Assembly (NCBI GenBank): GCA_002633005.1 | Contig: NMRA01000047.1 | Location: forward strand, 374,913 to 438,912 | Length of the DNA: 64,000 nucleotides | From: Phoronis australis | Taxonomy: Eukaryota; Animalia; Phoronida | Direction of reading: 5' to 3' | In this document: positions 1 to 26,111 of the stretch, piece by piece | Layout: the number at the start of each line of letters is the position of its first letter | Numbering within the stretch: position 1 is the first letter of the stretch | The notes under the pieces: generated by a model | Told to the model about the DNA's origin: nothing | The model's input: the letters and a program-made list of their open reading frames with translations, nothing else | Databases searched by the model: none | Program-made: the position numbers and the translations under genes

Positions 1-1272
1 CACCTTTAGTATTTTTACTCATAACGTAAAATTGCCGTGAGGAGTTGACAGGGACCTCAGGGGTTTCACACTCCACTGATTTATCCACAGTATTTTGAAA
101 ACGCTTTGCCCAGTCGCACATTGTGTGTCATAAAAGAGATAAGCATACCAGCAGCTGACGCAGCAAGTAAAACTACTCTCGTTTATCACATTGGTGTAGA
201 CTCACAGTTGATCTATGGTTTTCTGTAGACCCCAGACCGTCCCGAGTTGCACCACATACCAACTCGGGACGGTCTCTCACGACGATTAAGCGTTATGTAT
301 GAGGCCCATTTATATGTGAGGTGCTTTGTAGGTTCTGTACAACCCGAGGAAACTTGGGACATTTGGCCTAACAGATGGGGAATCAACAGAGCGTTTGTGG
401 TCCTATTTACGGCGATTCTCAAGAATAACGAAAGAGATGACTGCTTCTCACAGACAGGATGTTTTAGTAGATGCATTGATGTTTTATGGGGAACGCCTAA
501 GGTCTAGTTTTGGTAAGTCAGCAGGGTCTCATTTATGCGGATTAAGCACATTTTAGCATTCTCGGCACATAGGTGAGCCTTTGTCTGACAAAGAATATAT
601 TTGTTTAGTTTGAAGTTAATATTAAAATTAAAATGAATTTTCAAACATCATCAGTTGTTTACAATATAATACAAACCTTGTATTACTTATAAACTGGTAT
701 ATGTATTGTGTGGTGACTTTTATTGAACTCTGTCCTTGTGCGTCCACATATTTATGTGATTGTGCTCATTGTCGTCATCTCTGTCTGGGTGTCTGGCGTT
801 CGTAGCTGCATCTCCTACTTCCCTCACAGGATTGTAATGAAATTTTCCGACTGATCTCTGTGGTGCTATAGAGATCCAACAAGCGCTGTGCCTAGTGGCA
901 ATTTCATTTTTTCAGGTTCCATCTGTTTCTCTGAAGTTCCTTGGCAGTTTTTTATGAAATTTAAGAAATAGCTTTCTTTTTAAGAAACAACATCTTTTGC
1001 TTTTGGTTGGATTTGGCATATTTTGTGACATTTAGTGGCTATTTTATAATGCAAATGAGCACCCCTAGATGCTAAATGTTCGCTGAGCATTCTTAGGTGC
1101 ATTTCAATGCTCTGCGTTGCTTTTGTTAATAATATGGAATGTGCCCAATACTCTTTCTTTGATTTTTCTGAAACTTGTTCAATGAAAGTTTTTATTCATA
1201 TTCTAATAAAAGATCTACTATCTAATATTCATCTGTGTGCTTTAACTTTTGTACTCATTGCTTGTTTCTCAG

Positions 1273-3057
1273 GTAAGGGCTTGTCATCTAAACTGCAAAA
1301 GGCACAAGATACTCAAGCATTGTATGATTCAGAGCTGAGACAGTTGGCAAGTCTTGTACCAGGTACACCATTGCTTATCAGTTGTGGGTTTGTAAAAACT
1401 TAATTGTTTTTTATACACTTGGAAGTTTTTACTGTGTTTTCAGGTATGTATAAAATCTAATGCTGCATGTTTTATGGGCAATTGCCATCAGTGTTTCCCT
1501 TGTACAAGTTTAATAGTAAGAACGAGCTCAGAGAAGGAGACACCTCTCCAATGCTCAATTGTCAGCCATTAAAACCAAGATTCAAACCCATGTTTCCCAA
1601 ATGGGAGCCTAGAGCTCAAACCACTGGGCCGCACTGTCTAATCATTGAGAGTTGGTATCCTCATGCTCATAAATGTGTTAACAAATTTCTTCATTGAGTA
1701 ACGATTTTTCAGGAGGTGTCACTAGTGAACAAGCTGAGCAATGGCACGAAAATGCAAGGCAGTTCCATTTGAACAGTCATGGAACACGTTTAGGTATATA
1801 TTTTTAACAGTAAACCCCTACCTGAAAGCATCGTAACTTAAAAATCGTCTGTAATTTATCTTAAATTTTACTTAAAGCAAATTTGTATTGTGTTCCACAA
1901 AACTGAGATAATATCTATTCTTATCTTAACTTTAAAACAGCTCAATCTTATCTTAAGTTTGCCTTAACTAACTTAAGAATATGTGTTCTGCTTTTGCCAT
2001 CAAAGTGAAAAAGAAAGGTTACATTATAATTTTTGTTTAAAGGATTTAAGATGGCATGATAACTTGTACCTTAATGCATGTTATCTAGTGACTCACTTGG
2101 GGAAAAATACTGTTAGTGACATGACAATCATGCACACTGTGTTCAGAAAATTGTAAGATGTGATTTTATTATAATGATTAATAGAACTGTCAAAAGTTAA
2201 ATAACTTGTATTTTCACAATTCAGGTACAGAATCAAAACACAGTCGAATGTTGGTTGACATCCAAAAACTCTGTCACGAGAGGACATACCTTCTTTCACT
2301 TAAGAAAAAGTATGCTGGTAAGTATTATTTACACCACTTGTATATTCGCTCTTGTTTATGTTGACATTGTGTATCTTTTTATAACATTTTGGACACGTGA
2401 TTCGTTGTCATGTAATTGAACAAAAGCTCAAGTGCAAAATTAAGCTTCTATGACATGGTTCTTTCAGATGGCCAAACAATAGCAATGAGGTTGACCAAAC
2501 AATTGACTAAAACGATGAAGTGCCTGCGAAAGAGAATCTGTGACTACAATAACCTGGAGCAAGATGTGTCCGGAAAGTATCCCAAAAAAATTCAAGAAGA
2601 TACCGTTTTCAACCATGGCAACACTCTATGGGCTCTGATTAGTGATGAGACCTCTGTTTTAGGGGATGGGCTGCAGCAGTTGAAGGCTGATGTAGTGAAT
2701 GCACATCTGTACAAATTGCGTGCTACAGAAGAAATAATACTACTTAAGGATGAAATGAGGCGCGTGAAATACTTTTATGTTTTGGAACATGAGAAAGCAT
2801 TTGAAGAAGCCCAGCGGTATAAGAACCAAGGTGATGAAGCACAGGCATCTATGTGGTTGAACAAATGTATGAGGTTAGAGTTGAGATTGCAAACTCTTGC
2901 ACATCAGCTTAACGACAACAGTGGCCACCCCAGTATTTTGATTGATGCCATTGAAACTGTGATTGAAAGGTCAAAACTGAATATAGTAGACTGTGAAGAT
3001 GTACTTGAGAATGATGAAGAAGAATCAAGTGACAATAGTGGGGATGAGGATTGTTGA
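1273..3057 (+). CDS. C-terminal exons of a probable KDZ (Kyakuja-Dileera-Zisupton)-type transposase; 5'-partial
   Basis: Four phase-1-joined exons with canonical ag/gt: 1273-1362 (KGLSSKLQKAQDTQALYDSELRQLASLVP), 1713-1793 (GVTSEQAEQWHENARQFHLNSHGTRL), 2225-2317 (TESKHSRMLVDIQKLCHERTYLLSLKKKYA), 2468-3057 (DGQTIAMRLTKQLTK...KLRATEEIILLKDEMRR...acidic tail, TGA). The motifs KKYADGQxIAxRL and RAxEExxLLxxEM match my recollection of the helical C-terminus of animal KDZ-family proteins; no catalytic core is in the window. AATAAA at 3925-3930. Confidence 0.65.
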
Positions 3058-5068
3058 TGCACATAATTAATCACCATTCATCAGTGTGTAATTACTGGAT
3101 CTGACACTCAGTTTGAAGTAAAAAGTTGCCATTGTAATGGTGAATAAAAATGTTTTCATCTGTCAAATGCCAGAAAGTAAACCTCTGTGTGATAGGCATG
3201 TTAACAAAATTCAAACTTTGATAATAGTCACTTACAAGATTATGTCTTTGGAGAACCAGCATTCTCCTCTGAGTAATGGGCATTAAACTGGTTCTCAACA
3301 TTCGGGGACCCTTGTAAGTGGCTGTTGCCCAGTCTTTGTGCTTAACCTTCGCCATCTGTTCTTTCACGTGTATATTCTTTGGAATTTTTTTAACTCCATG
3401 TGCACTCTGTACTTGAAAATGTGGTACCATATTTCATTGTTTTAAATGACTACAAACCAGCTGATGTCAGGAAAAAATTCGCCATGTGTCTTAATCATTT
3501 TGGAATTGGAGATGTTAATTATTCCCCAGTATGGTTTGGAATTTTTGGAACCGTTGTAAGTCAAGAGTGTATTCCACACACAATAGACCTTTTGATTACT
3601 GCAAGTCCAGTTGGCCTGTTAAACAAAAGGGTCTGTGGTCGTGGCTGAGAAGAGGAAGTGTTTTAATGTCCCCTGTGGATCAGTGAATAACCAAACCCAT
3701 TATTTCAGACTTTAATTCACGTATTCTGAAACAGTAATTTCTTAATTGGGCATTGGGAAGTGGAAAAGTGTTTTGCTGTTAATAAGTCTGTATAGTTAAC
3801 CATTTCTTGTTTATTGTGACAGAGACTTTATGATGTGCTAGGCAGCGTTGTGTGTTTTCTCTGTTTCCTCGAAAACCCGTATTTGTGAACGTTGATGTTA
3901 TACATAAAATAATCTTTGTATTGAAATAAAAGTTATATTGAACACGTCAAAGTGATAATCATAACTTACAAAACATATCCATCCATTTCCGCAAGAGTAA
4001 TTTAACTCCCTGAGAATCAGCCGTATAAATTATTAGAAAAATACTTGTGTAAAATGTAAATTTGTTAGTTTTGCAATTGTCTTGCCGGCTAGCGTGGTGT
4101 GCCTACGACCGGTAAGACTTAGATAAAGAATGTAGAATTTTGAGAGAAAACCAAAACACGTCTTATCTTGAAAAGAAGTTCGGCTGAAACTCCTCAAACG
4201 CTGAAAATCAAACGCTGCATCAAATGCGATACACTAAAAATTAATCAATGAGAATTTGCCACAAACGCCTATAAACGTCATACACCACTGTTGACATCAA
4301 GCTTAAGTAACAGCTGAAAACCTAAACAAAGTTCGAGGACTCCAGTTACATTATGTAAATACGTGACAATTGTTTGCGTCTTAGTTATTGAAAGTCTCTC
4401 TCAATTGATATTTGACCAAAGAAATATATTTTCATGTTTGTAATGTGGAAGGCAAAACACTAAATTTCAAGAAAACCAGCATCTAGGTTGCATATTTGAC
4501 CTGGAAAGATTGAGAATTTAAAGCCTCGGCTTGTAAGTTATTTTAAACTTTGTGTTCGAAACGATGCAAAGATTTTATTTGGTTGTTATGGTTCAGTGCC
4601 TTAGGTTTTCAGTCTTGAATTCGATCTCTCATACCGAGTTTGAGATATTAAACCGTTTTTTAAGCTTGATTTTTTTGCTGTTAAATTCTTCGTCGTCACA
4701 TTTTACTGGCGTTTACTATAACTTTGATTGCTGTTATTCTCATTAAATTTTGGTTAGTTTCCTAACAACAAGCTCCTACCACCGGCAAGTCAGAACGTAC
4801 GTCCTACCTTTTTACACATTTTGCTTAAGCATGAGTGCCACATGTCTCAAAACTGGCTTCCTCCAATTGTCATTTTCTTCTTTATGGTAACATTTAAGCG
4901 GTTAACCGTAATTTAGGCCGTAATACTGGGTTGGGTCTGCTTTTGGCGGTTTCCTCTTTATTTCTTTGTTTTATTCGTTTTGCAATAAAATCTTCAGTTG
5001 CATGTTTCGACTTTTGACGGTTTTACCCATTAATGATGAATACATTAGTATGTAGACATTTCCGCCCG

Positions 5069-5180
5069 GCAGTGCTGTAGTGGTAAAATTAGAGGTAAGT
5101 AGGCGCCCAACCCATCGCATCGCCTTGAGCGCTGAATTTTAATAGTACATTGAACTCGCAAAAAACTTGATTCGCAAACA
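5069..5180. mobile_element. Partial copy of the same hAT-type MITE family
   Basis: CAGTGCTGTAGTGGTAAAATTAGAGGTAAGTAGGCGCCCAACCC resembles the reverse complement of 24155-24205. Confidence 0.6.
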
Positions 5181-7867
5181 TGCACATACGTAGGCCTACT
5201 TTGTGACTCACGAGTGGCCATTTACATAGAGTCTGCATTGGCGGATCTGGTATGTCGGAGAAAGAGGGTCCCGAACCACACATTTTCGCAAAGCAGAGAT
5301 CCATGTGCATTCCAAGCGGTCTCTGAAGGGGCCCAAGCACAATTGTAACGCCCAGAAATTATTTGAAGGTGGACATTTTTAGTCGCCCGTCGGGTGTGTC
5401 CTCGGGGCCCTTCGCCACCCGTTCCCCTTTATCCACCTATGCTGGGACACCATAACTGTTTCTTTATCTTGAAACTATCTTGAAACATTGATAAAAAATT
5501 CCGTTTCTCGGTGAGCGTACATGTATGACTGGTGGTCGCGCGCCCAAATGTCTTCAGCGTAGCGCATTGATGCCGTAAGCATCGTATCGAGACCCCTACT
5601 CCTCACTATACCGTTACTTACGGTACTTAGACGTTACTTTAAAACGTAAAAAGGTGGTTGGCTGCAACTATGTGCGCTTATGCCCCACTATACCGTAACT
5701 GCGCCGATTCATAAATGGACTGCAATTGAATCCAGAGCTGTACGCATGCATGTGTAATAAAAGTGTAGAAGTTTCCCATTTCAGGCAGAGCGTGTAACGC
5801 AAGCTACAGGCTTTGGATAATGTTTCCATTCGTTTTGGACAATAAGGGAAGCTTTTAAATCATCACACTGCTTTGTAACATTTCACACGTTGTTCAAAGG
5901 TCTGCTAAAAATTATTGTCATCGCAAAAATTATGCGGCCACTTAACTCCAACTGACCAAGCATTTCACTCCCAGATGGTCACCTGACCACGGTTTTCTCA
6001 TCGACTAGGGCGGGTTTTTTCGTTTCTAACCATTCCATTAGTGTCTGGTTTATTTTTGAAGCCCGTTACCAAACGTACCAATTTTCCGATACTAACTTTT
6101 TCTAACATATTCTGATGTGAGGAAATAATCGAACACACATTTTTTTCTCTCGCTTTGTGCGATTTTCTATGCTTTTTGAACTAGAATCAGGCGACTCAGG
6201 ATTGCCGCTATTTTCTACTTCTGTAGTCTTAGTACTTTTCTCGCATGTGAGTAGACAAGATCGGTGATTGTGAAATGTCTTAACTATAAAGTATTAATTG
6301 ATTTCATTACTGATTATAGTTATTTAAACATTTAAACATTAAAATATAAGAACGAAGAAAAACATTTTCAACATTTATTTCCAAGTACATCTGAAGATCT
6401 TGAAAATCAGTGTACACCAATAATCACAAAAACAAAGACCTTCACTAAATAATCACATTTTTGCTAGAAAGTGAACCATATCCAAGTAATAACTATGGCT
6501 ACTCATGAACCATTTCAACCACCACGTTATTGTTTGTCAAAAAACGGTAGTACAAGACATAACATAGCTAATAAAACTGAGAGAAGTTGTTTGAGAAGAA
6601 TATTTATGATCAAGGTAACATTTACAATCTACACCAATATCAAATAGGCTACTACTTTGTACAAAACACATACCCTATTCGAAGATTACATGCAAACACC
6701 ATTCAGCACTTACAAATATGAATGAAGTCACATTTCATAGAAAAAAATGATCATTGTTTTAATCAGTTAAAAGGTCTATTACAGAATATAGTCTCATAGT
6801 ACAAACAATTTGTTGCATTCAGTTTTAAGCCAGGTGCATAATTGGGGCTTGGAGAAATCGCATAACATGAGCCAGAAAATCTGCACCAAATAATAATAAT
6901 GGATAAACATAAAACAGGGATTAGACACTTACCTATGACACCATGAACCAATTGTATTACATCAGGAAAAGTTCACTGATATTTTTCAAACCTACTTTTA
7001 TAGCCCTAACATTGGCAAGGTGTGTGTCAAAAGATGAAATTACCCAATTCTTCAATTTCTAAGAAGCCATGAAATATATATTGTTGGCACTTAAAATGTC
7101 ATGTCTTGTGTACCCACTCTGCAGTTGAAACTGGTACATCATCGAGATTTCTACAGTTTTAATAATTGGGAAATACAGTAGCTTATTTCAGGAAGCATAA
7201 TGGACAAAAATCGCCACCAGAAGACCTCACGATTGTCACACCCTTCCAAAAATCAATGCCTATTTGGCAAACTTCCTGGAAATCCACCGATGAACTTTGA
7301 AAACACAGAGGCAAACGTGAACATTTAAACTGCAATTAGAGGACACTGAGATACGCCAATGGGTCCAAAACTTGTCATAAAATTTTGTCACCTCTGAAGG
7401 TGCATGTTTGCCAAATTTCAGAAAGATCCTACAAAAAGTTAAGGATTGAGGAACAGAAATGCCAAATGTGGCGCCAAAGTACCGGAACCAGTTCGAATAC
7501 CAACGTCAGCCACGCGATTCTCATCAGAAAAACATGTGCCAACTTTAACAGTCCTCCAAATAGTTTTACAGAAAGGGAAACGCCAAAAAAGAAACGGTCT
7601 CAAAATTACAAAAACGTCCACTAAGGTGGCATAGAACCGTTGATTAGACGTCCGAAAATTCCGTCACCTTAACAGTAGAAACCTATCTGCCAAAATTTAA
7701 CAAAATCGATCTAAGAATTATGAAAATACAGAGGTAACTGAAAAAAATTCAAATTGCCACTATGAGGCACTGCAGTTAAGGAGATAGAACAGCAGATGGT
7801 TGGACAAACATGACAGTAATATGCACTCACATACAAGTACGTGGACTGGGGAAATAACAACAACAAC

Positions 7868-10800
7868 TTATGAAGACAAGTTTGGGAAATGAGACTCAAT
7901 AACATCTTTTAAGTTTTCATATGGCTCGAATGTCACTTCCCCAGTCTCCCACAGCACCTCTGCTTGTTTTTCGCCATCTTTAGTAATACGCATACTTAGA
8001 ACATCCTTTACAATCCAAAGTTTCTGCTTTTTTGGTTTCTTTTTTTGCTGGCGGGTTTTCTTTCGTTTCTTTTTTGAGTCTGTAACAGAATTTACAACAT
8101 CCATGAAAACACATAATTGTTGATTACTGAAGCAATAAAGTCAGAAAAAAATTAATGATCACCATTTGGTAACTGAGGTTGTCTCAATTCTAGAAAGCCA
8201 TTCAAACGAATGAGCTGTTGAGACATTCATTCAATGAAACCACATCCTGAATTCCATTTGTGGATAAACGAAAATTGGATTGTACAATTGACCGAGTTCT
8301 CAAAAGTCAGGGCCACTATCGCACACTTTTGAGCTTAGTCAGAATAATAAGCAGCTTTTAATTTTGTGTAGGCATGGCAATTTTGTGAGCAACAGTGAAA
8401 CATTGTTGACCTTTCAATGACTAGAAAAGAAGGAAAAAGATGAAGATGCACAGAATACATGGTAATTGGTCCATTTGAACAAATCACCAGAGCTAACACA
8501 CGACCAATGTTATTAATCAACAGGTTCTTTGAGAAAGAAATTTAAGATTAAGCATCACCTTTAACTTCCACCATGTGCACATCTCCTCTCTCCATCATCT
8601 TAAATATGTCCACTGTAAAAAAAAAAAAACATCACATGCTTAAGTACCAAAATTTAACAAAGCAGGTATTCCACCTATTCAATCTTTTATATAGTATATG
8701 AGTTATACTTGTTTGTCTTACTCCTCAAACTTTTTATTTAAAAATTATCAATTTTTCTTACATGTGTTAACACCAGTTTAGTGTTGCATAACTTTTCAAT
8801 TCAATAGGACTGCTGACACACAGTTGGCTCAAATCAAGTTGCCCATGACTTGATTAATGGCTTAGTGAACATAATGCACCCTGTTCACTGGCAGGAACGA
8901 CCACCCATAATTTGAGTTTTTTTCTGAAGACCACCACCCATGAATTTTTATTTCTACTGCCGTCCCCCCCCCTCCCACACGGATTTTACTGGAACAGCCC
9001 TAAGCACCACTGGCAACCCCAGATTTTATTACCAACCTGGCATTTTTAGTTTTGGCAACCTCTGAGGTTTTTGCCAAGCCACCCAATGGGACTTGGCATT
9101 AAGTTAAGTGAAATCCCAGGACACCGCATAAAGTCCAGGGTAGCTGATTCTGCATACAATTCGGCTGACAAAAAAAGACAAGGGGTAAGGTCGAACTATT
9201 GTAATGTGCCCCACAGTATATTACAAGTACCTCCCAAATTCTCCCAGTTAGTGTACATTCAGCTCAGGTAATTATTGTATGACTTTGATACTCGTATTGA
9301 CGACTTTGTGTCAACTTGGTCCCGAACACATTCTGAGGTCGCACATTCACTTGTTACCGTTGCTAGGGCAAAAAGTCAAAATAGATCTTCGTCTGGTAAA
9401 TTTGATTATTTGTTTCGCAGCCTATATCTATTTTAAAGAATAAAAAAATACATTTTTCATATCAATTTCTTTCAAACCTTAATAAAATCTTACTTAATAA
9501 GATTCTTATTAGTTTTCGACTTCAGATTAGGGTTTTCTGAGAACTGAGAAGTGAAAACTTACTCGCAGTTTCAACCTCTACAAGAGGTGTCTCACTCACA
9601 CGCTCAATTAGTGGATGTGATCGAACACCTTCTTGTGCATGTGGGACATCGTGCCAAGTCTGTTCCTCAACCACTGGATGCTCTTGTGCAACTTCTTGTG
9701 CATGTGGGACATCGTGCAAAGTCTGGTGCTCTTGAGTCTCCTCCTGTTGGAGTCTGTAAAGTTAAACCAGACAGCCTCAGAACATGGTGAATTGCTTCAA
9801 TATTCTTGAATAATTAACCTTTTTCAAACAACATTTCACAGGTTGCGTTGTATAGAAGCTCAAATATTCATTAAAAGCTCCCACCATGTGTAGTATACAA
9901 TGAAAGCCACTTACATACATTCAGCCATTTTGAAATTATAGTAAAATACTATTTCTGAAAAGGTCCATGTGCTTTAAGCTTGTGCAAGACCTTTAGAAGA
10001 ATTTTAGCCAACTTCAGAATATCATAAATGTACCTCAGTAGATGATGAACAGAATCTATGCCAGACACTATGTTATGTGCACTGTTATCCTAACCGCTGT
10101 GAAGAATTTTTTATAAAATGTTAAACTTTTGCATGACGGGCAATGAAAAGACAAGACTTGAACATTTATATCATACGAAATTTGGTCATGTAATTGACCC
10201 TGTTGTTTTGTTATGAATGTATGTTTCTTTTTTCTGGTAAATATGGTAAAAAGCATGGTCATGACAGTTTATGTCAGATTGGTATAAATTCAACAATTAA
10301 ATTCTACAGAATTTCCTCTTGCAGAGTTAACTTTTGTATACAGTATACTTTTGAAGACTGTAGGCTAAATGTAAACTTGTCAATGAGGCCCTACTTAGCC
10401 TTATAACAAACATGTTGAACAAACCCCGACCAAGTTAGATTTACTCATAGCTCTTAGTTAAACTATAAGCACATAATTGATAGTTATACCTCGTCACCCT
10501 AAGTACAAGTCCTGTCTTCTTGTGGAAATCTAGAATTTCCTTCAATCGGGTCAAGCTGTAGTAGTCTGGTTTTCTCAAAACTAAGCCTGGCATATTGGTT
10601 TCAACAACTATTTTGCCTTCCCTAACATTTTGGTAAGGTAGTCGTGAAGACTTTCCCACAGCAGTTGCTACAAAGAAAAATTTAACTGGTTTAAGCACAT
10701 ATTTTTAATGGAACAACACAGGAAATAGATTAACTCCACAACTAATATTTATTCGGCTAACCTAACACGTGTGCACCAGGGCCCAGGATTGCAGTCAAGT

Positions 10801-13800
10801 TTACATAACCATTTAAGTAAAAATATTCACCATAGTGTAAGCAAACATTTGATCTGGTGCAAATTTCCCCTAAGCTTACATGAAAATTAATTTTTTATGT
10901 TCATATAAAGCTAACTTTGTAAAATGAAGAATAGAGTGTACTTTTGAATGTCTTTTGATTGTTTAAACAAAAGTTTAATACTGCATCATTTAAAACCTTC
11001 TGAGGGTGTATATTTGTATCACAAAAATGGCCATCAGATGGCACGAAATTCATTAAACCCATTCGAAACTGGGAAAGTGTAGTCGTCTGATAATAGAGTA
11101 TGATCCCATATCCAAGTGACTTAGTGTAACTGCATGTGTATGAGTTGTTCAGAGAATTAAGCGTTATGTAATACATCCCCAAGTTAGTCATGAGGAATTG
11201 TAGTAAACATGTTTGTATGGTATATCCTGTTATTATTCATGTATGTAAGTGTATGATCACATGGATTGTAACAGATTCAGTAGTATCAGTAGAAGAGTAT
11301 GAAATAAAACTATATTATCCTCCATCAGACTAGTATTATCCTTGGACCGCGTTCTCGCACTGTGTCGTGCATTCAACCTTCCTAACCGAACATAATGCCT
11401 TTCACTGCTAGAACACCAACATCATCTCTCAAAGTTATTTGTCAAGTAGTATGTAAATTCCGTTAAAGAACTCCAAAGATGCAAAGGTAAATGGAAAAAA
11501 GCTGCCGTTAGGAGCAGACAGATACAGAAGCAAAACACAAAAAACAGTTGATGCACAAAACAGAAAGATCCTGGTGTCTTCAAAATAGAAAATTGTTTGG
11601 CCAATTTCATGAAAAACATCAAGAAACCGAAGTTAAGATGCAAAAGTAAAAAGAAAAAAGACACTATGGAGCACAACTGTAGTTAGATTTGTCTGAAATG
11701 GCATCATCAGTTGCTGTGTCCTGTTTAATTTCAGGAGGGTCTTGCTGCGGTTAAGGAGATACAGCCATGGACGCAAAAACTTGGGATGGCACTACGGAGG
11801 CCATAGAAGTTCAAGACGGAAAATAAATGTCAGTCTCAATCTTTTTATCAGGAACATTATCTCCAAATGATAACGGGAAGATAAATATGTGGGTACATAG
11901 ATGTGATGGGTGAGTTAGGAAACCAAAACAGTGGAACAGGATTTGTTATATAGAGCACAAATTGGACACTGAGGTTTATCGTTATTGATTCTCTCATTAA
12001 TTTACAGTGACGAAGCTTTTGCAATAATATATTTTAACTTACAGTACAGATCATTTAGCAGATGGCGCAACTCCACCCTCAAGTCTTTAATTTGCACCGC
12101 TGTCTGGTTACTTTGACTGCCTGTAAATTGAAACAAATATTATGACAAATTAATGTATCGTTATTTCTCTAGAAAAATTAAAGACTATTCTACTGAACAT
12201 TTCAAAATAGATTTACTTAAACATTTCTAAACCCACTTAAAGATGAAAAGAGTGGTTTAACAACTCACATTAGACGGTTCAATAGTGAGTGCACTTAAAA
12301 GTAGGACAAAGGGACTGCATTGGGACAATTTCCTAAATAATAAACACCAAACCTCAATAACAGTTAAATATCCATTTTGAGACAACAAAAAATGACATGA
12401 ACCTTATTAGCATTGTAATCCTTATCCTACGCTAGCCGAGGTCAACCCACATGCCAATTAACATATTACAAATTGCCTTGGGTTTACTCAATGGACTATC
12501 ATAAGCTGCACCTGGGCTGCGCCAGGAGAGTGCACTCACCCCAGGAGACAAGTGATTTTCATTCAGAAATTGGGAGACCTATGGAATGTTGTTAAGATAT
12601 GTGAGCATACACATTCTATAGTTCACAGTTTCTGATTTAAAACATAAGGCTGTGTTTACTAGTTTGGGAGATGTTGGCAGGTTTATGTAAATATAGACAC
12701 ATAGTTCCATTATATGGCTGAAGCCAGACAGGACCTGGATGACAGTGGATCAGTTAACTTTCACTAGGGCTATGATGGAGATTTACATATGGTGAAAATC
12801 TCCATTAAATTCTGAACAACTTTTATGTCGGCTCCTTTTCTGTGAAATTTAAACATTTCCTCTTCAAATTTCCAATTTAAAATTCTTAGGTCATTAGTCT
12901 GGGTGAACTTCATAACAACTCAGTGTACAGCAGTAGTGGTGACCTACAGTACAGCCACTGAATTATTAGACTTCATCCGGGCTACCTCACGCCTAGCCAG
13001 ACCGGAGCTTAACCGGAGACAGACCAGAGAGTGAGGCGTGAATCAACCGTGACAGCTGGCGTGAGCCTAAGCGTGACTGTACCCGGAGCTTACCTTAAGT
13101 TAGGCGTGAACGAAGCGCGAGCCCGCCTTGAGCCAGGCGTGAGTTTCACTGCCTTGTCTAGAGTTGGAACAGTGTTTAATTGTTATCCTCACTCGTTTAG
13201 CGAACAAAATACTGTATCGTATTTTGAGTGGCATTTCTCATCGCTAGAATCATCTTAACTAGTACGCTATTCAAGTTGACTAGGACATTATTTAAGATTT
13301 AATTTAGGTTTGTCCGGACACACTACCAAGAGGGTCTATTTGTCTTGAACAAGTATATTACGACTAAATATATCGGCATTGTTTCGTTCAAGTTAGTGCT
13401 TGCAATTTAATATTAATTTCGCGACTAAGGAAGTGTTTGTGTTATGAGTGTGTACGTATGCTAGCAATGGAGGCAAAATGTACAGCACTGAAAGTGACAC
13501 GAATACGTGTTTAGATAATATCTTATTATAATGAGTAGCTTTGCATTTAGATAAACACCGTAGGCCTAGTGGAGCTATGAAATATGAACAAGAAGCCCAG
13601 ATCATCTAACAAACGGCAGTAAAATGCGAGCATGCATGCATGCAGAAAAGAGTAGTGCGAAGACTATCAATTAAATAATAATACCACTACTGCTACTACT
13701 AATGATATTACAGGTTAAAGAAATACTGATTGTAACTATAATAGTAAGTATACTAGTAAGAACTACAGTATCAACTTTATTGCAGACACACAAGTACATG

Positions 13801-16800
13801 TACATTGTAGGCATACAAAAAGCAGGGAAGGCGGGACGAAAGCGTGAGGTAAGCGTTAACTAAACCGGAGGTAAGCGTGAGGTAAGCGTTAACTAAACCG
13901 GAGGTAAGCGTGAGGGCTACCCAGAGAGTAAGCGTGAGGGCTACCCGGAGAGTAAGCGTGAGATGACCGTGACTGATTTCTGTCACACCTGCGTGAGGTA
14001 GCCCGGACGAAGTTTAATAATTCAGTGGCTGTACTGTACTTAGCTCTGCACACAGGGAAAGTAGTCTGAATAGTCAGCAGGATAAGGCCGGGGTTAAAAA
14101 ATACAACTTGCATACAACAAGCTGTGATTCACTCACCTTTTGTTGCATGCAAATAGAAATCTGTCATCATGACATTGTCAAAGAAAGATGCCAGTGCTGC
14201 CTTTCCAAAGCTGTTCACCTTATCGGCAGAAGAGTCCCACACAAGACCAGCTATATTAACTCCAAATTTTGACAAGTCTTCAACCTGAAATTAAAAAAAT
14301 TTTCTCAATATTTTTCTTATTTATTTTTTGTTCATGACTGATTATAATTAATAGGATTGGTATAATGCAGACAGGACTAGATTCTCATAAAATTCAAGTT
14401 CTTGTTCATGATTAAGAATACAAGTTAGTACAAAATAAATACTCAAACTCACTGTTCGGGTAAAAATCTGCATAAGCTTGTTCTTTGAGCGTGGGGATGG
14501 AGTGACAGAGGATTTTTCTTTGTACTTAATTTTCTCATCCATGGAAAGTTTTTTCCATTCTTCCCCCCACTGTTTGAACTTTCCAGCCCCAACTTCAGCA
14601 CCTGTTGATCAAATATGAAACTGATAAAATAATGCATTATGAATAAATACACCAGCCTTCCAGTTTCATTAAGTGCCCTTCATCTTGTGTATTTGCCATT
14701 GTGTGGTGTAGCAGTGTTAGCAGAGTATTGTGTAGAGAGAGAACTTAAAGTCACCCTAACAAGTGCGAGTTGCTTAACGAATAAAAGCTGTTATGTCTTA
14801 TTTACCAACAAGATAACAAGAATATGTTCATTTTAGTAAAGAAAGGCATATATGAAATTCAAGGTGTAATTCAGAAGCAAATTGGACAAAAAGGATCTAA
14901 GTATAGCACTCACCCTTTTCATGACAGAATTGGTTGTATCCACTTTTCCCTTTCAGATAAAGCGTTTTCCGCCTTTCATATGTTTTTCCCATAATTTTTT
15001 TTCTGTAGTTGTTGACCCATGTCTGAAAAGTAGAATCAAAACTTTCAGACTTACTGACATAAATCCAAATGCAAACAAAACAACTAGATAACAAATCCAA
15101 GCGTGAAAATATAAAATCTATATTGTGGTTGAAATTTATTCAAATTCTTAAAGACATTAGAACAATCACAGCGGCTCTAACAAATTAATAATATACTCTT
15201 TGAACAGCATAACTCAACTGGGGTTACATTTAATAGCTAGTTTTCATTTTACCTCATAATCCCATTGATATACTTGACTAGGTTTGAACATGTGCCCTTT
15301 GGGCACACCTGATGATACAAAGTATGCCCTTTTTAAAAAGGGTGTGCCCAGCAGACATAATGTAATTAAGGTGGCACAATATGAATCAGAAATCCCAAGA
15401 GCAACCAAAATAACAGCCACGTTTTCACCTGACCTGCTATTCGTTGACTAGAATCTTGGCATTTTTGAAACAGCGCTGTGTTTAAAAGGAGGGGCCGTGG
15501 TGGGAAGGGGGTGTGCACTGCTGCAACGTACATGTGCTCTAATGGTGCAGTCCAGAATATCCCTGTAATCCATGTTCTGTTTCATCTTCATTTAACTACA
15601 CTGTACAAACCCAGAAAGGTGTTTTAGGCTATGCTAAAGACTTGTACCCTCACAATTAACCAGGAATGAAAAAACAAATTATAATTAACATGAGAGCAAC
15701 ACATGGCAATGATATGTTCCCACCGAGTGTGGATCGCAAATGGCAAAATCCTAAAGGTGCTAATTATCTAAACATTCTCAAACACGCAATATGCAGCAGT
15801 CAGAAAAATGACCATTAATGAATTAGACATGAATTGAGCTAGACAAATCAGAGCACAATTGCCATTAGGTGGCAGCTGCAGCACTTAAATCAGCCAAAAA
15901 AGGATGCCAGCAGTGCTCCTCTAGTAATAACTGAAACATCCGCCACGTTTCAAAATGATGCTTCATATGGATAGAGAAGCAGATGTCACCATGACACCTT
16001 GATAGACACATAGACCTACGAATTTGCATGATCCTACGAGCGGTTTGGTAGATACAGGAGGCAGATGCCAGACACAGAGATGACTGTAGTATATGCCGGG
16101 CTAATATATGCAGGTGCATGTAAATGCATGTTACTGTTTCATCATTTCAGTTAGCATTGTCAACTTTCTAGATATGTCTAATTTTGGTCTTGCTACAAGT
16201 TTTGAGCTCAACACTATACTGTACCTTGACTCGTCTCTCGGAGCAACCCAATTTCTTGGCAGTTTCCTTGACTTCTGCAGAATTCTCTTTTCTCATCCCT
16301 TGTTCCCAAGCTGACTGTAAGATGAGTACTTCACTATTTGAGAAGTTTATCTGAAATTAATCAATCAAAGTGCACAAAGGTTGTCCATTAAACAGACTGC
16401 AACCACTACTAAGACACAGAACAAAAATCTATCAATCTGAACCATGAGACTAAAATTCGAAGAAACTAACAGGAACTTTGGAAATAAAAATGAGATTTTC
16501 AGACTCAAATCCACATTTGAAAACACAAAAAACTAATGACAAGAAATGGGCTCCGAATATGTTCAAATCAAAGGGTGTCTTATGTATTTGGTCCCTGAGC
16601 TTTTGTAACATGTCATTTAATTATTGTTTACTGAAACAAAATAAGACGATAAAACCAAAACGAATAACAGGAGCCAGTTTTCACTCACTAATGGCCATTG
16701 CTGCTATACAAGTGCAAACTCTTCCCAGCAGCCACTTTGGTTTCTTGTATATATGCATTTGTAGCCAAAATTCACCTGTAACCAAGTTGGTGGTTTGGGG

Positions 16801-18803
16801 TAGCAATGGATGGTGAAAATTGATTGATGTCGAACCTAAGACCTGCCAACACTTGGATGACAGTATTAATAATAATAGACAAAACCAAATGAGGTACCAG
16901 ATGACTAAAGCTTTGGAGTTATGGAGGGACGCACCTATCAGACTATTACCAATACATTGTTCCCACGTCTGTGAAATCAAATTCTCTCATCGGGTAATTA
17001 TCAATCATTAAGCCAATGACATTCTCTTCAAAGTCTATTTTGAACATCATACACAAATAGCATGTGATCTGGGCATGCCATCTTGCTTAGTGAGCTGCAT
17101 GACGTGTGGGGCATCAAATTAATAGTGACTGGGAGAGAGGATGCCAAATTGGGAGAGTGCAAATGGTGAGCAGTGGAGCGGTAAAAGTAGAGTACACTGC
17201 CCCCCCCCCTCCCCTCTTCCGGTGAATCATATTTATAAGCATCTGTTAGCTACTCGCTAACGGGCAATTGCCTATTAGCTGAATGGTTAGCACACTCGTC
17301 GGTTTTATAGGGGTCGCTGGTTTGATTCCCAGGTAGGGTAATCTTGGCTATTGTTTACTCCAAGAATGCCACATTGACTGCCAAATCCAGCTTTCAATGA
17401 ATAATGGACATTGCCCGTTACTCGACTTTTATCTACAACGCTTAATTTTTTGTTTGAATGCGGTATTTAGGGAGGATGTTTTTTACTTTTTTTTTGCAAT
17501 ACCCATGTGTCATACATTTTTGAAAAGCCCTTGGTGTGAGCAATGAAATGGTGCAAAAATCAGGAAAAATTGGGTGAGCGGTTACCGAGAAAATGACCGT
17601 TGAAACGCAACAATTATGCATAAAATATCTGCCTTCTTACATAATTTCGTAAAAAATAAAAGAATATACATGTGCTGCAAATAAAAATTGAGACAAACAT
17701 GGTGGTGTGTATTATATATTTGTATTTGGATCGATTTCTACAGAGATATTGCTGTTTAAATGTGTTGTTTAATTAGCATATGGAACAGGCTCATCATGAA
17801 CCTCATGTTTAATGAAAACAATGGATTGCACAGCTTTAAAGGTAAAGAGCAAAAAAACAACATATCAGCTCAGAAATAAATACATCTGAGCTAGGAAGAA
17901 ATTTCACATCAAACCACAAAACAACATTGGTTGATTTTGGGAGAGGCAAGGCCCCCCCCCCCCCCCTAAAAACTCCCAGATTTCATTTGGCAGTGTGAGG
18001 GTGCAAATATCTTACAGGTGAAATCCTGCGTAATACTCTGCCCTTCCCCCCATCTAAAAATCCTAGATCTGCCCCTGAATACTACTACATGGGCAACACA
18101 TCATGGCCCGACAGGGGGCTGTGGAAGGCTATAGCACCCCCAATTTTTCAGAGCTGGGTGCCACCCATGTACTATTAGATCGTATCATAGCAAAAAAAAC
18201 ATCAGAAAGTAGACAAAAGACCATGATTTGGGAAAACAAATCACTCTTAACATGAACGATTTCATCATTTACGCAACAAAAACTCTTTGTAACAACTTTA
18301 TTTCGAACGGTGAGTTACCATGCCCGAACTTCAACGTAGCCGCTCGTGGCGTCGACGTGCGACGACTTAGTGAACTAACGACTGCTGTTTGAAAAGTGCC
18401 AATTGGCGCAGCAGTTTGACAGAATTTCAGAAAACATTTCGTAAACATGATTCATGGCTTCGCATGAATGATTCGTAGGTTCGTAGATGATTCTAAGTTC
18501 CTGCACTTCTGGAAGGATTTTCTAATGGACATGATAACATTTAACAAATCAGACAAATACGTTTTATTAAAATAATACATCATAATTCTTTTCAAAATCT
18601 CTACGGAATGTAGAAGTCAAAATGGCGCAATCAGACGACAAAAAGATGGCGAAAAGCGAACGTCTGGCGATGGATCGTCCGATTCAGTTCATCATTACAG
18701 TAGTTTAACGATGTAATTAGGCCGGTGAAAAGTAAAAAATAGTGCTAAGTGTGAAAGTTCAACTCACCCTGACTCTTTTCCTGCATCTCTCACGAGGCTC
18801 CAT
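7868..18803 (-). CDS. 426-aa multidomain chromatin protein: HDX-like homeodomain + HMG box + GTF2I-repeat-like domain + chromodomain (10 exons)
   Basis: Exons (minus): 18803-18768, 16350-16225, 15022-14914, 14601-14453, 14284-14137, 12120-12043, 10667-10490, 9753-9563, 8612-8559, 8079-7868. All introns GT-AG and phase-compatible; 1281 nt, no internal stop. Homeodomain RKRVRINFSNSEVLILQSAWEQGM...AKKLGCSERRVKTWVNNYRKK; HMG KSGYNQFCHEK...WGEEWKKLSMDEKIKYKEKS; I-repeat-like LRVELRHLLNDLYSTAVGKSSRLPY...GLVLRKPDYYSLTRLKEIL; chromo LWIVKDVLSMRITKDGEKQAEVLWETGEVTFEPYENL. Possible polyA signal at 6379-6374. Confidence 0.85.
12947..14036. mobile_element. Non-autonomous Tc1/mariner-pogo-type element (about 1.09 kb) in an intron of the homeo-HMG-chromo gene
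   Basis: Imperfect TIRs of about 45 bp: CAGTACAGCCACTGAATTATTAGACTTCATCCGGGCTACCTCACGC ... GCGTGAGGTAGCCCGGACGAAGTTTAATAATTCAGTGGCTGTACTG, with TA on both flanks; subterminal AGCGTGAG/ACCGGAG repeats. Confidence 0.85.
17258..17420 (+). mobile_element. Degenerate tRNA-like sequence bracketed by 11-bp inverted repeats
   Basis: TAACGGGCAAT (17258) ... TAGCTGAATGG (A-box-like) ... GGTTTGATTCC (B-box-like) ... ATTGCCCGTTA (17410-17420). Confidence 0.45.
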
Positions 18804-21800
18804 ATCTGTTTTCGCTGTAATAATTTCCGCGGTGGTAGAAGCAAGATTTCAAGAGCGCGCGTGGTGAAAGTGAAGCTCTCGTTGATCTCGCGAGATAGTT
18901 TTACGCAACCGTTACCCATTGTTCATTTGAACCGGCGACTCCTGATTAAAGGCCCAAGGCGTATATTTCAAAGAACTCGAACTGGAAATTTCGATACAGG
19001 AACATTTTCTTCACAAATCAATACAACATTCACAGTCTATGCCAGCACAGGTATGAATTTATATCAGGTACGGTTTTGATTTCATTTCCTATTCAACCCC
19101 ACAATCGTTGGAGCTTATAATGGGGTTTTATGCAGAAAAATACGAAAGCTTTTGTAACGTTAGGCTGAAAGATCAAGTGGTTGAAGCAGTAACTGTACCT
19201 GCTAGAGCGTTAGCAGTGCGTACTGGACACTCTTTCAGAGCGTAACTGCGCACAACTTTTTTTTGGTTTGAGCAAGTAACTGCGTAAGGAACGGGTGTCT
19301 ATTTTGGGGAAATTGCTTTTTGTTTACCGTTGATAAAAATTGCCCAATTGAGCATTTCGCTTAGTTGTACACTGTGTTAATAGTCGTATCGACATGGTTC
19401 ACAATTTTTAAATTGAGATTGTGGTTTTTTTCAAATCACATGAACATAAACATATTTTTGATCGAAATAGATGTTTTGGAAGACCCGGCAATTCATGCTG
19501 CAGTGTGAGTCCTGAAAGGCACATTATCGTTGTTTTTACGTCAGTAGAATCTACTGATTACATTTTGGTATTGTTGAGTAGGATAGACTTTTTGACCAGA
19601 GCTGTAAAACTTTGAAATCAGTGGTGTCGATATTGGTACAAATCGCCAATTCTCGCCTTTGTTTGAAGGTAATTTTCACCAGTTAAGTACATTTAATGTG
19701 CATGCGCTATTTTTCAATTGGGGTTTAGCTTTGCCAGCAGAGCGTTTACTACGAACGCGAAGGTTCAGTCCAGGTTCGAATTAGCCACACTAGTAGGTAG
19801 GTTGTGAGGGTATATTATTATTCTCGCTGGGGCTAATCTCGGAAAGAGTACTTTTTTCGCCGATATAGACATTTTTAGCAGAATCATGCAGTCTCAATGC
19901 TTATTACTAACATCGAGACGCTTATGACCATGAATCATTTCAGACAAGTACATGTCACAAGGAAATCAAACTTTATCTCGTCAGCGCAGCTGTGTTTTGG
20001 CTTGATGTCGTTTAGAGTACCCTATGACATATCATCACGCATCGTGTTGTGTGCGGAATCGTACGCGCTTTATCAGAGTGAACGTTTTCACATTACATAA
20101 GGGTCAGTGTGCTTCACACTAACCTAAGATTCGGGATTAAATTCCACTCCAACAAGCTGAACTCGGTCCATTCGAGGATTTCTCCGAAAGTTTAACAAGT
20201 AAGTCACGTTGATACTACCATTACCACTCGATCTTACTTCTACCATTATTCATGATTATCAATGCGACTGTTATTGTTATTATCATTTTATTATTATTAT
20301 TCTTGTTGTTGTTATTATTATTATTATTATTATTAGTGGTAATATATACTACTCTAACTACTTCTACTACTACTTCTAATATTACCATGAGTATGCAACT
20401 GTCAGTTACCCTGTGGTAGCACTACGTTATGTTGTTATTGACATGCCTTTTATCAGTATTAGTACACAAAAATTATTTTGCAATTCCAACTTGTTTCCAA
20501 GGCGGACGTCATCACGGAGTTTTCTAGAAATAAATTGTACTTGTGGCTTAGAAATATTCTTCTTTTTGACCTCAGTTTGGTTATAATGGTTGTCGTCATA
20601 ACAGTACTTATCACAGCCTAGTCATGTCAAAACTTGATAATAACAGGGACTTTCATTAAGAATGCGTTTGTTTCTCAAAAAAATCTGCTGAGGTTCAACA
20701 AAAACTGTTTCATGCGGTCGCGTTGCCCACTGAGCGGGAACGCTGCACCACAAGCCATCACCCAGCCGATTATGCTGGTCGCGCGATGAAGAACGCTGCT
20801 ATGCCATTCATTAGCGCAGGGTGACGTCCTCTTGTTAATTGTACATCTCATTATCTAGAGCACTAAAGTTGAATATTTAATAAGCTTGGTAAATACGCTA
20901 CGTGTATTGATCTAACGTGAACAAAGGAACTTCAGGCGTGTTTGTGAGAAGTAGCGTCTCCGTTGTCTGCTTTTGTCGCACACCATGTGTTTTTCAAGGT
21001 AACAACGTCGATTTTATATCAGTCTTTGTCACGTACCTTACCGATATCTTGAAATACTTTGACTAGCGCAAGGTTGCATGTACTGGCATCATCTACAGAC
21101 TGTGATAAATTTTGCCGCAGTCTATCAAATCCTGGCTGAATATCCACCAGACTTACAGCTAGGACACTCCATTTGAGGGTCATAGACGATTGGGATAGAC
21201 TTTTTGAAGTTAATAGCTTTGACCAGAGCTATAAACAATAAAGACGTTGCATTTTGTAATTTCATTACAAATCTCCAATGTCGTCAACGTTGTCTGCCAG
21301 ACAACTTTTAAGGCCAGTGTCTTTTCGTTACGATGAAAATACTCTGTTAGGATTTGGCTCAGGGGCATAGCGTTCGAATGCTCCTGCATAGTTAATGGAC
21401 TTTTTTCCCGTTAATGTCTCTTAAAAATACTACCGTCGGTTACACTGGCGAACCTAACAACATTCACCTTGGACCTTGTGCGTGTTGTAGGTATGTAGCA
21501 GTGGCTGCGTTTGGGGTCGAAACTATTTACTATTTAACTGTCCCTCAGTAGTACAAAATCTAACGCTAATGTTTCTTGCTAATTGCTGTCTAAATCACTA
21601 ATTTCCAACTAATTTGCTTATCCATTCAAGATATATCAAACAGTTTTCTTACGACCATAAAAATCATTTCACTCTCAAATGTATCCTTTATGGCTTCAAC
21701 AAACAACAAGAGTGTCAAAATCCACCATCACTTTCGACTACAGGCTAAGGTCTTTATAAAATTGAGCCGCTTCACTTGACTAGATTGTGCGCTCTCAATT

Positions 21801-21879
21801 CCTGACCAGTGATTAAAATCTGTTGATCAGTTGAGGATTTCACTCAACAGTTTTTGTTGATTTTCAGCTTGACAAATCA

Positions 21880-21994
21880 GGTCCTGGCAGGTCCAACAAT
21901 CTGGTCCTGGCAGGTCCAACAATCTGGTCCTGGCAGGTCCAACAATCTGGTCCTGGCAGGTCCAACAATCTGGTCCTGGCAGGTCCAACAATCT
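21880..21994. repeat. Perfect minisatellite, 5 x 23 bp
   Basis: Unit GGTCCTGGCAGGTCCAACAATCT, five identical copies. Confidence 0.95.
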
Positions 21995-22974
21995 GTTCCA
22001 CAGGGTGTATAAAACCTGGAAATATGAACAAAACACTGGCCCAAAGACTTCAAAGACCTTGCATACAGTCTACTGAAACTGATGCCAAAGTTGATTTTTC
22101 ATCTTTTACGAGTACGCAAGTGCAACCGGCTACTTAAAAAACGAACAAGGTACACCAAATCAGCAGTTTTCACCCCAAAACCACCATTTGCATGCGATTA
22201 CTACGAAGTGAGAGACAGTACCTACATTCAAAATGCCAAAAGTTTCCAGATTACAAAAACCAGGTGAAAAGTGGGTGCTGAACAGACAATTTTTTACCGA
22301 TCTAAAGTGTCTAAAGAGAACCTGAATTTCTTACTAAATTTCGTCTTCGCGCTTGCAAGCAGTCATGCAAAGTTTTTAGAAACCCACGACTGAGCAAAAA
22401 GGGAACAAGGGACCAACAACTGTGAACCTTTCACTCAGAACACACTCAAAAATCAACATAAGCAAATGTCATTCGTAGACTTCACATCATCATGCAGCAC
22501 AAAACTTAAAATACCCTGCCAACCCAGCAGCCGCCAATTTTTAATGAATCTGGTAAATTCAACCGTGGCTCAGAAACTATTGAATGTCACCTCTAAGTGC
22601 TGACAAAAGAGGGATAAGATCGCCATATTATTGCATAGCCTCGCATCTCATAATGTGATATCTCCGTAAGTGAAAAAACCAGTGACAGTCTTTCAAATTT
22701 CATGCTGTGTTAGCACCATGACTGACCCTAAGGAAACTGAATGTAACAACAATACGCCTTGCTTTCTGTATCACCTATGGCCTAGAACAAGGTAAGCTTG
22801 TGTCATGATCTTCACATTAATATACGTACATGTACGTGCAGTATCTGGGCAGGGAATGCTGCACAGATTTCAGTTACTCTAGAATAGCGCTAGAAAAGCA
22901 AGGCGAGGTTATCAGAGATATTGGCTTGTATTTTAATGAGAACACTTTGTTTTGGCTAAATTTTTCTAGCGGCG

Positions 22975-24056: not shown

Positions 24057-24205
24057 CAGTGCTGTAGTGGGACGTAGGTGCACGTAGGCGCAGCCAACCA
24101 CCTTTTGGCATTTGAACGTAGCGCCTACTTACGTTCAGTACTCAATGTGATACAGTGGGGTTTGGGCGCCTACATTCCTCTAATTTTATCACTACTACAG
24201 CACCG
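24057..24205. mobile_element. hAT-type MITE
   Basis: Ends CAGTGCTGTAGTGG ... CTACTACAGCACCG; flanks ACGCGCAC / ACGTGCAC form an 8-bp TSD with one mismatch. A related end lies near 5069-5140. Confidence 0.75.
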
Positions 24206-25173: not shown

Positions 25174-25326
25174 AGTTCGTTCATTTGCAGTCAGCCAATT
25201 GATACAGACAAGTTCGTTCATTTGCAGTCAGCCAATTGATACAGACAAGTTCGTTCATTTGCAGTCAGCCAATTGATACAGACAAGTTCGTTCATTTGCA
25301 GTCAGCCAATTGATACAGACAAGTTC
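25174..25326. repeat. Perfect minisatellite, 4 x 37 bp
   Basis: Unit AGTTCGTTCATTTGCAGTCAGCCAATTGATACAGACA, four identical copies, no spacers. Confidence 0.95.
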
Positions 25327-26038: not shown

Positions 26039-26111
26039 ATACCTGTATTGTATTATGGGTAATACCTGTATTGTATTATGGGTAATACCTGTATTGTATT
26101 GTGGGTAATAC
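26039..26111. repeat. Minisatellite, about 3 x 23 bp
   Basis: Unit ATACCTGTATTGTATTATGGGTA. Confidence 0.9.

What the first reader, a model, noticed from the sequence alone, without database searches (positions are those of the whole stretch)
1273..18803. Candidate giant two-gene KDZ-type transposon: spliced transposase facing a homeo-HMG-GTF2I-chromo partner gene
Seen: two multi-exon genes with open frames in convergent orientation, stops 4.8 kb apart, each with a plausible polyA signal. Known: KDZ transposons described in fungi travel with chromatin-related domains and TET/JBP genes, and chromodomains direct targeting in other mobile elements such as chromovirus integrases. Inference: the pair is one large (>19 kb) intron-bearing animal DNA transposon or a domesticated derivative, with the partner binding element ends or bending DNA (homeo/HMG/I-repeat) and reading chromatin (chromo). 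I know of no description of this pairing. The KDZ call rests on recalled C-terminal motifs only, and I could not locate termini.
Basis: partly seen in the sequence, partly recalled or inferred. Interest (0 to 1): 0.9.

Follow-up and report, generated by a model that had tools for sequence, protein, structure and literature searches.

The report
KDZ transposon carrying TFII-I-repeat partner gene
Two spliced genes that face each other are likely the right-hand part of one large animal cut-and-paste transposon: the tail of a KDZ transposase and a transcribed partner gene predicted to bind DNA, which carries a repeat best known from the vertebrate TFII-I factors and has a relative in the same position inside multicopy transposons of another genome.

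Summary
Both genes are real. Gene B (-; 10 exons, 426 aa) is transcribed and spliced; it has weak homeo, HMG and chromo matches and a convincing I-repeat. Among 80 related KDZ loci, 24 of 28 with 8 kb or more downstream carry a convergent second gene (nearly all one assembly). One three-copy family has a partner that matches gene B (0 of 3000 shuffles reach the score; three introns align in position and phase). The other partners end in ULP1-PHD and do not match B significantly. The related elements begin CACCCG; one complete copy has inverted repeats and a 7-bp target duplication around partner exons. The window has the matching end motif at 19292-19297, just upstream of gene B: suggestive only. 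Not shown: left end, target duplication, copy number in the host, partner function. This transposase lacks about 75 conserved residues and may be defective. I found no paper on the animal pairing; this scan has noted similar pairs on other DNA. New variant of a known kind.

The parts
332..512 (+).
   Evidence: Pfam KDZ E 7e-10, above cut-off; 58-70% identical to animal KDZ proteins
1273..1362 (+). Gene A exon, 90 nt, phase 1-1
   Evidence: open and GT-AG; an exon of the same length and phase follows the core exon in family F7 (read)
1713..1793 (+). Gene A exon, 81 nt
   Evidence: open and GT-AG; aligns to homologues
2225..2317 (+). Gene A exon, 93 nt; holds only the end of a segment that is about 75 aa longer in homologues
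2468..3057 (+). Gene A last exon (helical C-terminal region, acidic tail, stop TGA)
   Evidence: aligns to Patiria and Branchiostoma KDZ proteins, E 1e-10 to 3e-16
3143..3148 (+). AATAAA, likely polyA signal of gene A
   Evidence: use not shown
6374..7867 (-). 3' UTR of gene B with AATAAA at 6374-6379
   Evidence: strand-specific depth 34-42 in run X8 over 6501-7800; X5 contig 6384-7118
7868..8079 (-). Gene B exon 10: basic stretch, chromo-like domain, stop TAA
   Evidence: Pfam Chromo E 0.004, below cut-off; joints
8559..8612 (-). Gene B exon 9 (54 nt, alternatively skipped)
   Evidence: included in 4 reads of X8, skipped in an X5 contig
9563..9753 (-). Gene B exon 8: acidic linker with a 63-nt internal duplication
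10490..10667 (-). Gene B exon 7: second part of the GTF2I-like I-repeat
   Evidence: Pfam GTF2I E 0.0003; all 4 PDB matches are I-repeats; vertebrate TFII-I hits
12043..12120 (-). Gene B exon 6: first helix of the I-repeat
   Evidence: profile of 25 TFII-I repeats covers B residues 203-266, 22.5 bits
14137..14284 (-). Gene B exon 5: domain X, 148 nt, phase 0-1; possibly MADS-like
   Evidence: same length and phases as the F7 partner exon; fold hint only from related exons
14453..14601 (-). Gene B exon 4: HMG-box helices 2-3
   Evidence: Pfam HMG E 0.003, below cut-off; all 3 PDB matches are HMG boxes
14914..15022 (-). Gene B exon 3: homeodomain helix 3 (WVNN) and start of the HMG box
   Evidence: read from the sequence; related partners have an exon starting one codon before the same W
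16225..16350 (-). Gene B exon 2: homeodomain-like helices 1-2
   Evidence: Pfam Homeodomain E 0.036, below cut-off; no homeodomain in the PDB sequence search
18768..18803 (-). Gene B exon 1 from the ATG
   Evidence: joint to exon 2 in 36 reads
19288..19297 (-). Candidate right terminus of the element (reads CACCCGTTCC inward)
   Evidence: only CGGGTG between 5397 and 38141; joint first of 127,936 positions with a 10-nt matrix, 15th with a 16-nt matrix; not confirmed

Best explanation
Window 1-19297 is likely the right-hand part of one two-gene KDZ DNA transposon of more than 19 kb: gene A is the 3' half of its transposase, and the transcribed, spliced gene B is likely its built-in accessory gene, predicted to make a DNA-binding helper. 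Shown: both genes, the KDZ identity of A, the I-repeat in B, and the layout terminus > transposase > < partner < terminus in related elements. Inferred: the partner is modular. An N-terminal homeo-HMG-X(-I-repeat) block would bind and bend the element's own DNA, and a swappable C-terminal module (chromo here, ULP1-PHD in most related families) would deal with host chromatin, either keeping the element expressed or steering the transpososome. I favour a cofactor that binds the element's own DNA (about 50%) over a pure target-site reader (25%) or a pure anti-silencing factor (25%). This copy's transposase lacks a conserved segment and may be non-autonomous.
For: KDZ core above the Pfam cut-off; closest named homologues carry CxC1, CxC2 and KDZ. 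Convergent downstream partner in 24 of 28 loci with 8 kb or more downstream, 10 of 10 families; partner-profile hits in another position in 1 of 80 loci. Family F7 (L005, L007, L008; 98-99% identical, three contigs, different left flanks) has a partner whose four joined exons align to B: Smith-Waterman 96, reached by 0 of 3000 shuffles in two schemes (maxima 63 and 68); HMG+X part alone reached by 3 of 3000. Its three internal introns fall at aligned positions with the same phases as in B, and its X exon is also 148 nt. Eight families start with CACCCG; right ends lie beyond the partner in L037, L054 and L055; L055 has a perfect 30-nt inverted repeat and a 7-bp duplication. The window has the end motif in the expected place and orientation. 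The transposase tree separates the ULP1-PHD families from a group holding the window and F7 (UFBoot 96).
Against: Joined gene B gave 0 tblastn hits in the 80 loci at E up to 1 and no phmmer hit under E 1.3. A profile of the ULP1-type partners does not find B (1.6 bits; shuffles reach 11.7), nor does their X-exon profile (probability 0.3%), so only 3 of the 24 partner loci belong to a family shown to be homologous to B. F7 was picked by eye after the search, and the same permissive blastp also gave gene A a chance-looking hit at E 3e-4. The partner profiles were built from the loci they were counted in, and all 28 long loci come from one assembly. The end motif matches the relatives' ends at only 11-15 of 30 positions, and an identical 10-mer lies at 5416 inside an unrelated repeat. 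The window and F7 are not resolved as sisters. No chromodomain was seen in any related partner. No function was tested.
Confidence: 0.75

Rival explanations
1. The pair came from one two-gene KDZ element but is now fixed: gene B is kept as a domesticated host transcription factor while the transposase decays.
For: B is intact, well transcribed in run X8 and alternatively spliced, while A is weakly covered and lacks about 75 residues that 36 of 39 comparable loci have. B's introns hold several insertions, a sign of age. Transcripts differ from the window at 0-2 positions per piece, with no divergent paralogue among the pieces shown.
Against: A still has an open, in-frame chain of canonical exons; a candidate terminus is still in place; no close named homologue of B was found, whereas an old domesticated gene should have orthologues.
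Confidence: 0.15
2. Chance neighbours: a KDZ insertion landed beside an unrelated host or transposon-derived gene in a repeat-rich stretch.
For: Direct searches with B find nothing in the 80 loci; the 3.2-kb gap between the transcripts holds unrelated repeats; the window's ends are not proven.
Against: A homologue of B with matching introns sits in the same orientation beside a KDZ gene in three dispersed copies elsewhere; a convergent partner is the rule in these elements; the end motif lies just beyond B's start.
Confidence: 0.07
3. Gene B is passive cargo: a chain of captured host gene fragments carried by the element without a role in transposition.
For: The C-terminal module differs between families; partner sequences are highly diverged.
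Against: Position, orientation, open frames and intron phases are kept across families whose transposases are only 31-46% identical to the window's over the longer aligned pieces.
Confidence: 0.05

Closest known systems
Kyakuja (KDZ group), Kojima 2025, PMC12730594 (parts 1-4 of 7 read, one supplement row seen)
   Same: KDZ transposase; large multi-gene element; CA..TG ends; the one complete relative found has a 7-bp target duplication
   Different: Kyakuja as described is fungal, lacks terminal inverted repeats and carries TET/JBP; the relatives here have inverted repeats and a homeo-HMG-X partner. No TET/JBP gene was seen, but it was not searched for with a profile.
Zisupton (passages in PMC9297572, PMC12062965, PMC12730594; Bohne 2012 not read)
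   Same: animal, multi-exon KDZ transposase, terminal inverted repeats
   Different: Zisupton makes 8-bp duplications and has CxC7; the closest homologues here have CxC1/CxC2 and the relative makes 7 bp. The passages read mention no second convergent gene.
Fungal KDZ accessory HMG-domain gene (Iyer et al. 2009 and 2014; recalled, neither paper held)
   Same: an HMG-type gene travelling with a KDZ transposase
   Different: here in animals, with homeo-like, X, I-repeat and chromo-like parts; homology to the fungal gene not tested
Vertebrate TFII-I family (GTF2I, GTF2IRD1, GTF2IRD2)
   Same: the I-repeat
   Different: TFII-I proteins have 6-7 repeats; B has one, among other domains, inside a transposon. 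GTF2IRD2's transposon link is a fused hAT transposase (PMC10641963, passages), a different matter.
Two-gene PIF/Harbinger elements (transposase plus Myb/SANT protein; named in PMC12730594, mechanism recalled)
   Same: works-like model: catalytic transposase plus a separate DNA-binding protein
   Different: unrelated transposase and unrelated partner domains

Membership tests
KDZ transposons | KDZ transposase domain (PF18758) | tested here: met
   39.4 bits against cut-off 26.6, but only model positions 167-212 lie in the window
KDZ transposons | N-terminal CxC clusters and the first two catalytic acidic residues | not testable with these tools
   they lie left of the window and no genome is held; present in the closest homologues
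KDZ transposons | Defined termini in this copy | tested here: inconclusive
   candidate right end at 19297; left end outside the window
KDZ transposons | Dispersed copies or empty sites in the host genome | not tested
   no DNA-read result was obtained; the related families are multicopy
KDZ transposons | Complete transposase C-terminal region | tested here: not met
   about 75 aa absent that 36 of 39 loci with the last exon have; no remnant found in intron 1794-2224
Kyakuja | 7-bp target duplication and CA..TG ends | tested here: inconclusive
   met in relative L055, 1 of 31 end pairs examined; not testable in the window
Kyakuja | No terminal inverted repeats | tested here: not met
   relatives L055, L037, L054 have inverted repeats, 24-30 of 30 nt; tested on relatives only
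Zisupton | 8-bp target duplication | tested here: not met
   L055 gives 7 bp, with 2 mismatches at 8 bp; one case, on a relative
GTF2I-like I-repeat | Profile match over the repeat | tested here: met
   positions 1-68 of 75, 22.5 bits, single-sequence E 5e-9; exon 7 alone is under Pfam's cut-off, 21.7 against 27
TFII-I protein family | Multiple I-repeats | tested here: not met
   one repeat in B against 6-7 in TFII-I
Chromodomain (methyl-lysine reader) | Profile match and three-residue aromatic cage | tested here: inconclusive
   E 0.004, below cut-off; no chromodomain in the PDB sequence search; by eye two cage positions are Trp and the third is Gly (cage positions recalled)
Homeodomain | Profile match, Trp48 and Asn51 | tested here: inconclusive
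   E 0.036 on exon 2; WVNN at the start of exon 3 (numbering recalled)
MADS-box fold (domain X) | helix, beta-hairpin, helix matching SRF/MCM1 | tested here: inconclusive
   model of related exons (pLDDT 86): top rows NRF1 Z 3.6, rmsd 2.2, 47 aligned and SRF Z 3.3, rmsd 3.3, 47 aligned, among 48,161 chains, tied with an unrelated kinase at Z 3.0; Foldseek E 0.9; not shown for the window's own exon

The most novel reading that the evidence does not exclude
Animal CxC1/CxC2-type KDZ elements are an obligate two-component transposon lineage whose accessory protein is a chain of transcription-factor folds (homeo, HMG, MADS-like, I-repeat) with a swappable chromatin module, and the vertebrate TFII-I/GTF2IRD1 I-repeat arose by domestication of this accessory gene.
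Probability: 0.3. Interest if true: 0.82.

Novelty: new variant of a known kind. Interest (0 to 1): 0.64.

Why it matters
KDZ elements are poorly studied, and the papers I could read describe the animal ones as single-gene. A second, expressed gene inside the termini gives a concrete testable component: remove it and measure transposition, expression and targeting. It also puts the I-repeat, known mainly from the vertebrate TFII-I family, on an invertebrate mobile element, which makes a transposon origin of that family testable by phylogeny. In practice such partners will be annotated as host transcription factors; the CACCCG ends and the 7-bp duplication give a way to recognise them.

Tried and rejected
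No genome for the window is held and the related records could not be extended, so the window's left end and F7's right end stay open. No DNA-read result was obtained for the candidate end, so copy number and empty sites stay open. No RNA holder was listed as such; the RNA runs laid were added by species label. The inverted repeat 5077-5136/5615-5690 against 24065-24195 was rejected as the element's ends: both are copies of a short repeat family with many flanks in the reads. Word-seeded protein searches with the last exon of A (0 of 530 candidates) and exon 5 of B (0 of 69) were blank. The full-library search with exon 7 gave 8 hits: 4 TFII-I family proteins and 4 repetitive, apparently unrelated proteins. 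The protein atlas did not complete. PDB sequence searches with exon 5 and with the X profile gave 0 matches; the single-sequence model of the window's exon 5 gave 0 Foldseek matches. MAFFT placed the window's exon 5 out of register with the related exons. An ORF in intron 1794-2224 was considered as the missing transposase exon and rejected (no profile match, wrong phase). Literature searches showed no description of an animal two-gene KDZ element or of an I-repeat on one. Iyer 2009 and 2014 were not held; Bohne 2012 and Repbase were not seen, and only one row of the Kojima 2025 supplement was; any of these could hold such a description.
Full report
Observation. Reading the window and chaining exons by coordinates gave two open, convergent gene models with only GT-AG introns: gene A, five exons from 332 to 3057, 344 aa, and gene B, ten exons from 18803 to 7868, 426 aa. 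The stops are 4,810 nt apart.

Expression. Four runs were laid on 1-19500. For gene B, run X8 shows the exon 1-2 joint in 36 reads and the exon 9-10 joint in 4; a contig of X5 joins exon 8 to exon 10, so exon 9 can be skipped. Strand-specific depth of 34-42 over 6501-7800 marks a 3' UTR ending near the AATAAA at 6374. Gene A has sense-strand depth of 0.2-2.5 over 1301-3250 in three runs; no joint of A is among the rows shown, and 41 joints were not shown.

Gene A. The core exon finds 7 proteins among 23 candidates, named ones from Anneissia, Patiria and Branchiostoma. The two full-length ones scanned (867 and 912 aa) have CxC1, CxC2 and KDZ. The spliced A model aligns to them to the acidic tail but lacks about 75 residues, including a conserved RW segment. 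That segment is present in 36 of the 39 related loci that have the last exon, and no remnant was found in the window. Either this copy is internally deleted or it is a shortened subfamily. About 460-480 residues lie left of the window.

Gene B. Single exons give only sub-threshold Pfam matches to Homeodomain, HMG, GTF2I and Chromo. The I-repeat is the firm call: exon 7 finds vertebrate TFII-I proteins (4 of 8 hits) and only I-repeat structures (4 of 4), and a profile of 25 TFII-I repeats covers residues 203-266 across exons 6-7 (22.5 bits). The HMG call has 3 of 3 weak PDB matches to HMG boxes. The homeo and chromo calls have no PDB sequence support.

Do the two genes belong together? A scan of metagenome contigs with the core exon alignment found 174 relatives and kept the best 80. 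Many fall into multicopy families whose shared DNA runs far beyond the transposase. A convergent second gene was found in 24 of 28 loci with 8 kb or more downstream, in 10 of 10 families; partner-profile hits in another position occurred in 1 of 80 loci. All 28 come from one assembly (WLWD01, host not identified); L016 and L053, from two other records, also have it. The profiles were built from these same loci, so the count shows a conserved layout, not homology to B. Most partners have a W-initial exon, an HMG-like exon, an X exon and a C-terminal ULP1 protease with PHD finger. Their intron phases in L042 (0, 1, 0, 1) equal those of B exons 3-5, but their sequences do not match B significantly.

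Family F7 closes the gap. L005, L007 and L008 are 98-99% identical, on three contigs with different left flanks. Their partner has an HMG exon, a 148-nt X exon and two I-repeat exons; L005 is cut off after the I-repeat exons. Joined, the L008 exons align to B at 20% identity over 169 columns; the Smith-Waterman score of 96 was reached by 0 of 3000 shuffles in each of two schemes, and the HMG+X part alone by 3 of 3000. The three internal introns sit at aligned positions with the same phases as in B; the intron after the I-repeat differs. I picked F7 by eye after the search, and its C-terminal domain is not a chromodomain. In a tree of two transposase pieces (23 rows, 169 columns; L026 dropped for lack of one piece; families F4 and F10 not included) the ULP1-PHD families split from a group with the window, F7 and the named deuterostome proteins at UFBoot 96; the window's sister is not resolved as F7.

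Ends. Eight families begin with CACCCG. Matching right ends lie beyond the partner in L037, L054 and L055. L055 8583-14449 has a perfect 30-nt inverted repeat and a 7-bp duplication and encloses partner exons; it is the only one of 31 end pairs with a duplication. In the window the only CGGGTG between 5397 and 38141 ends at 19297, 494 nt upstream of B's ATG and in the expected orientation. It ranks joint first of 127,936 positions with a 10-nt matrix and 15th with a 16-nt matrix; the shorter length was chosen afterwards. It is a candidate, not a proven end.

Domain X. A model from 12 related X exons is helix, hairpin, helix. Its best structural matches are the MADS-fold proteins SRF, MCM1 and NRF1 in three searches, but all are weak (E 0.9; Z 3.3-3.7). 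The window's own exon gave no match. I treat MADS-like as a hint.

Mechanism. Shown: gene structure, expression of B, family of A, element layout in relatives. Inferred: that the window's pair is one element; that the partner binds and bends element DNA, by analogy with the Myb/SANT partner of Harbinger elements and with HMGB1 in RAG recombination (both recalled); that the C-terminal module engages chromatin. The chromo-like domain seems to lack the third cage aromatic (by eye, positions recalled), so methyl-lysine reading is doubtful.

Known and new. Kojima 2025 (PMC12730594; parts 1-4 of 7 read, one supplement row) gives Kyakuja 7-bp duplications, CA..TG ends and no inverted repeats, and Zisupton and Dileera 8 bp. 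The relatives here mix the two: 7 bp, CA..TG and inverted repeats. Passages of PMC9297572 and PMC12062965 describe animal Zisupton without a second gene; passages of PMC10641963 concern the hAT fusion in GTF2IRD2. An HMG gene beside fungal KDZ transposases is recalled from Iyer et al., which were not held. Eight searches showed no description of the animal pairing. Earlier notes of this scan report similar pairs on other DNA; they were leads, not evidence.

Verdict. Observation confirmed; interpretation right in outline; new variant of a known kind; interest 0.64.

Noticed in passing
window 12945-14038: A 1.09-kb element with 48-nt inverted repeats in intron 5 of gene B; reads in three runs (19, 14 and 42) lack it, so it is polymorphic or absent from other copies.
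   Followed up: partly
window 5070-5690 and 24058-24200: Two opposite-facing copies of a short repeat family, the first split by a nested insertion; they mimic terminal repeats around gene B.
   Followed up: yes
window 14583-14671: Reads in runs X6 and X7 (16 and 25) go back 89 nt across the start of exon 4 of gene B; a duplicated allele, another copy or back-splicing.
   Followed up: no
window about 32770-40780, minus strand: A multi-exon C2H2 zinc-finger gene (Pfam zf-C2H2), probably a host gene; TFIIIA-like by recall.
   Followed up: partly
window 46806-48537: A 1.7-kb element with perfect 26-nt inverted repeats and subterminal GGGCGGTTAA repeats.
   Followed up: no
window 21875-21999, 25174-25321, 26039-26111: Short tandem arrays with units of 23, 37 and 23 nt.
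   Followed up: no
window 18886-18895: Palindrome TCTCGCGAGA just upstream of gene B's ATG, a known animal promoter motif (recalled).
   Followed up: no
L039 12134-17352, L066 16150-18014: Long ORFs that look like hAT transposases inserted inside KDZ elements (by eye).
   Followed up: no
L023, L026: KDZ frames over 1.2 kb without introns; L023 groups with the window's transposase at UFBoot 88.
   Followed up: no
L007 15929-16369, minus strand: The F7 partner ends in a domain with no Pfam match under E 0.2, neither chromo nor ULP1.
   Followed up: partly
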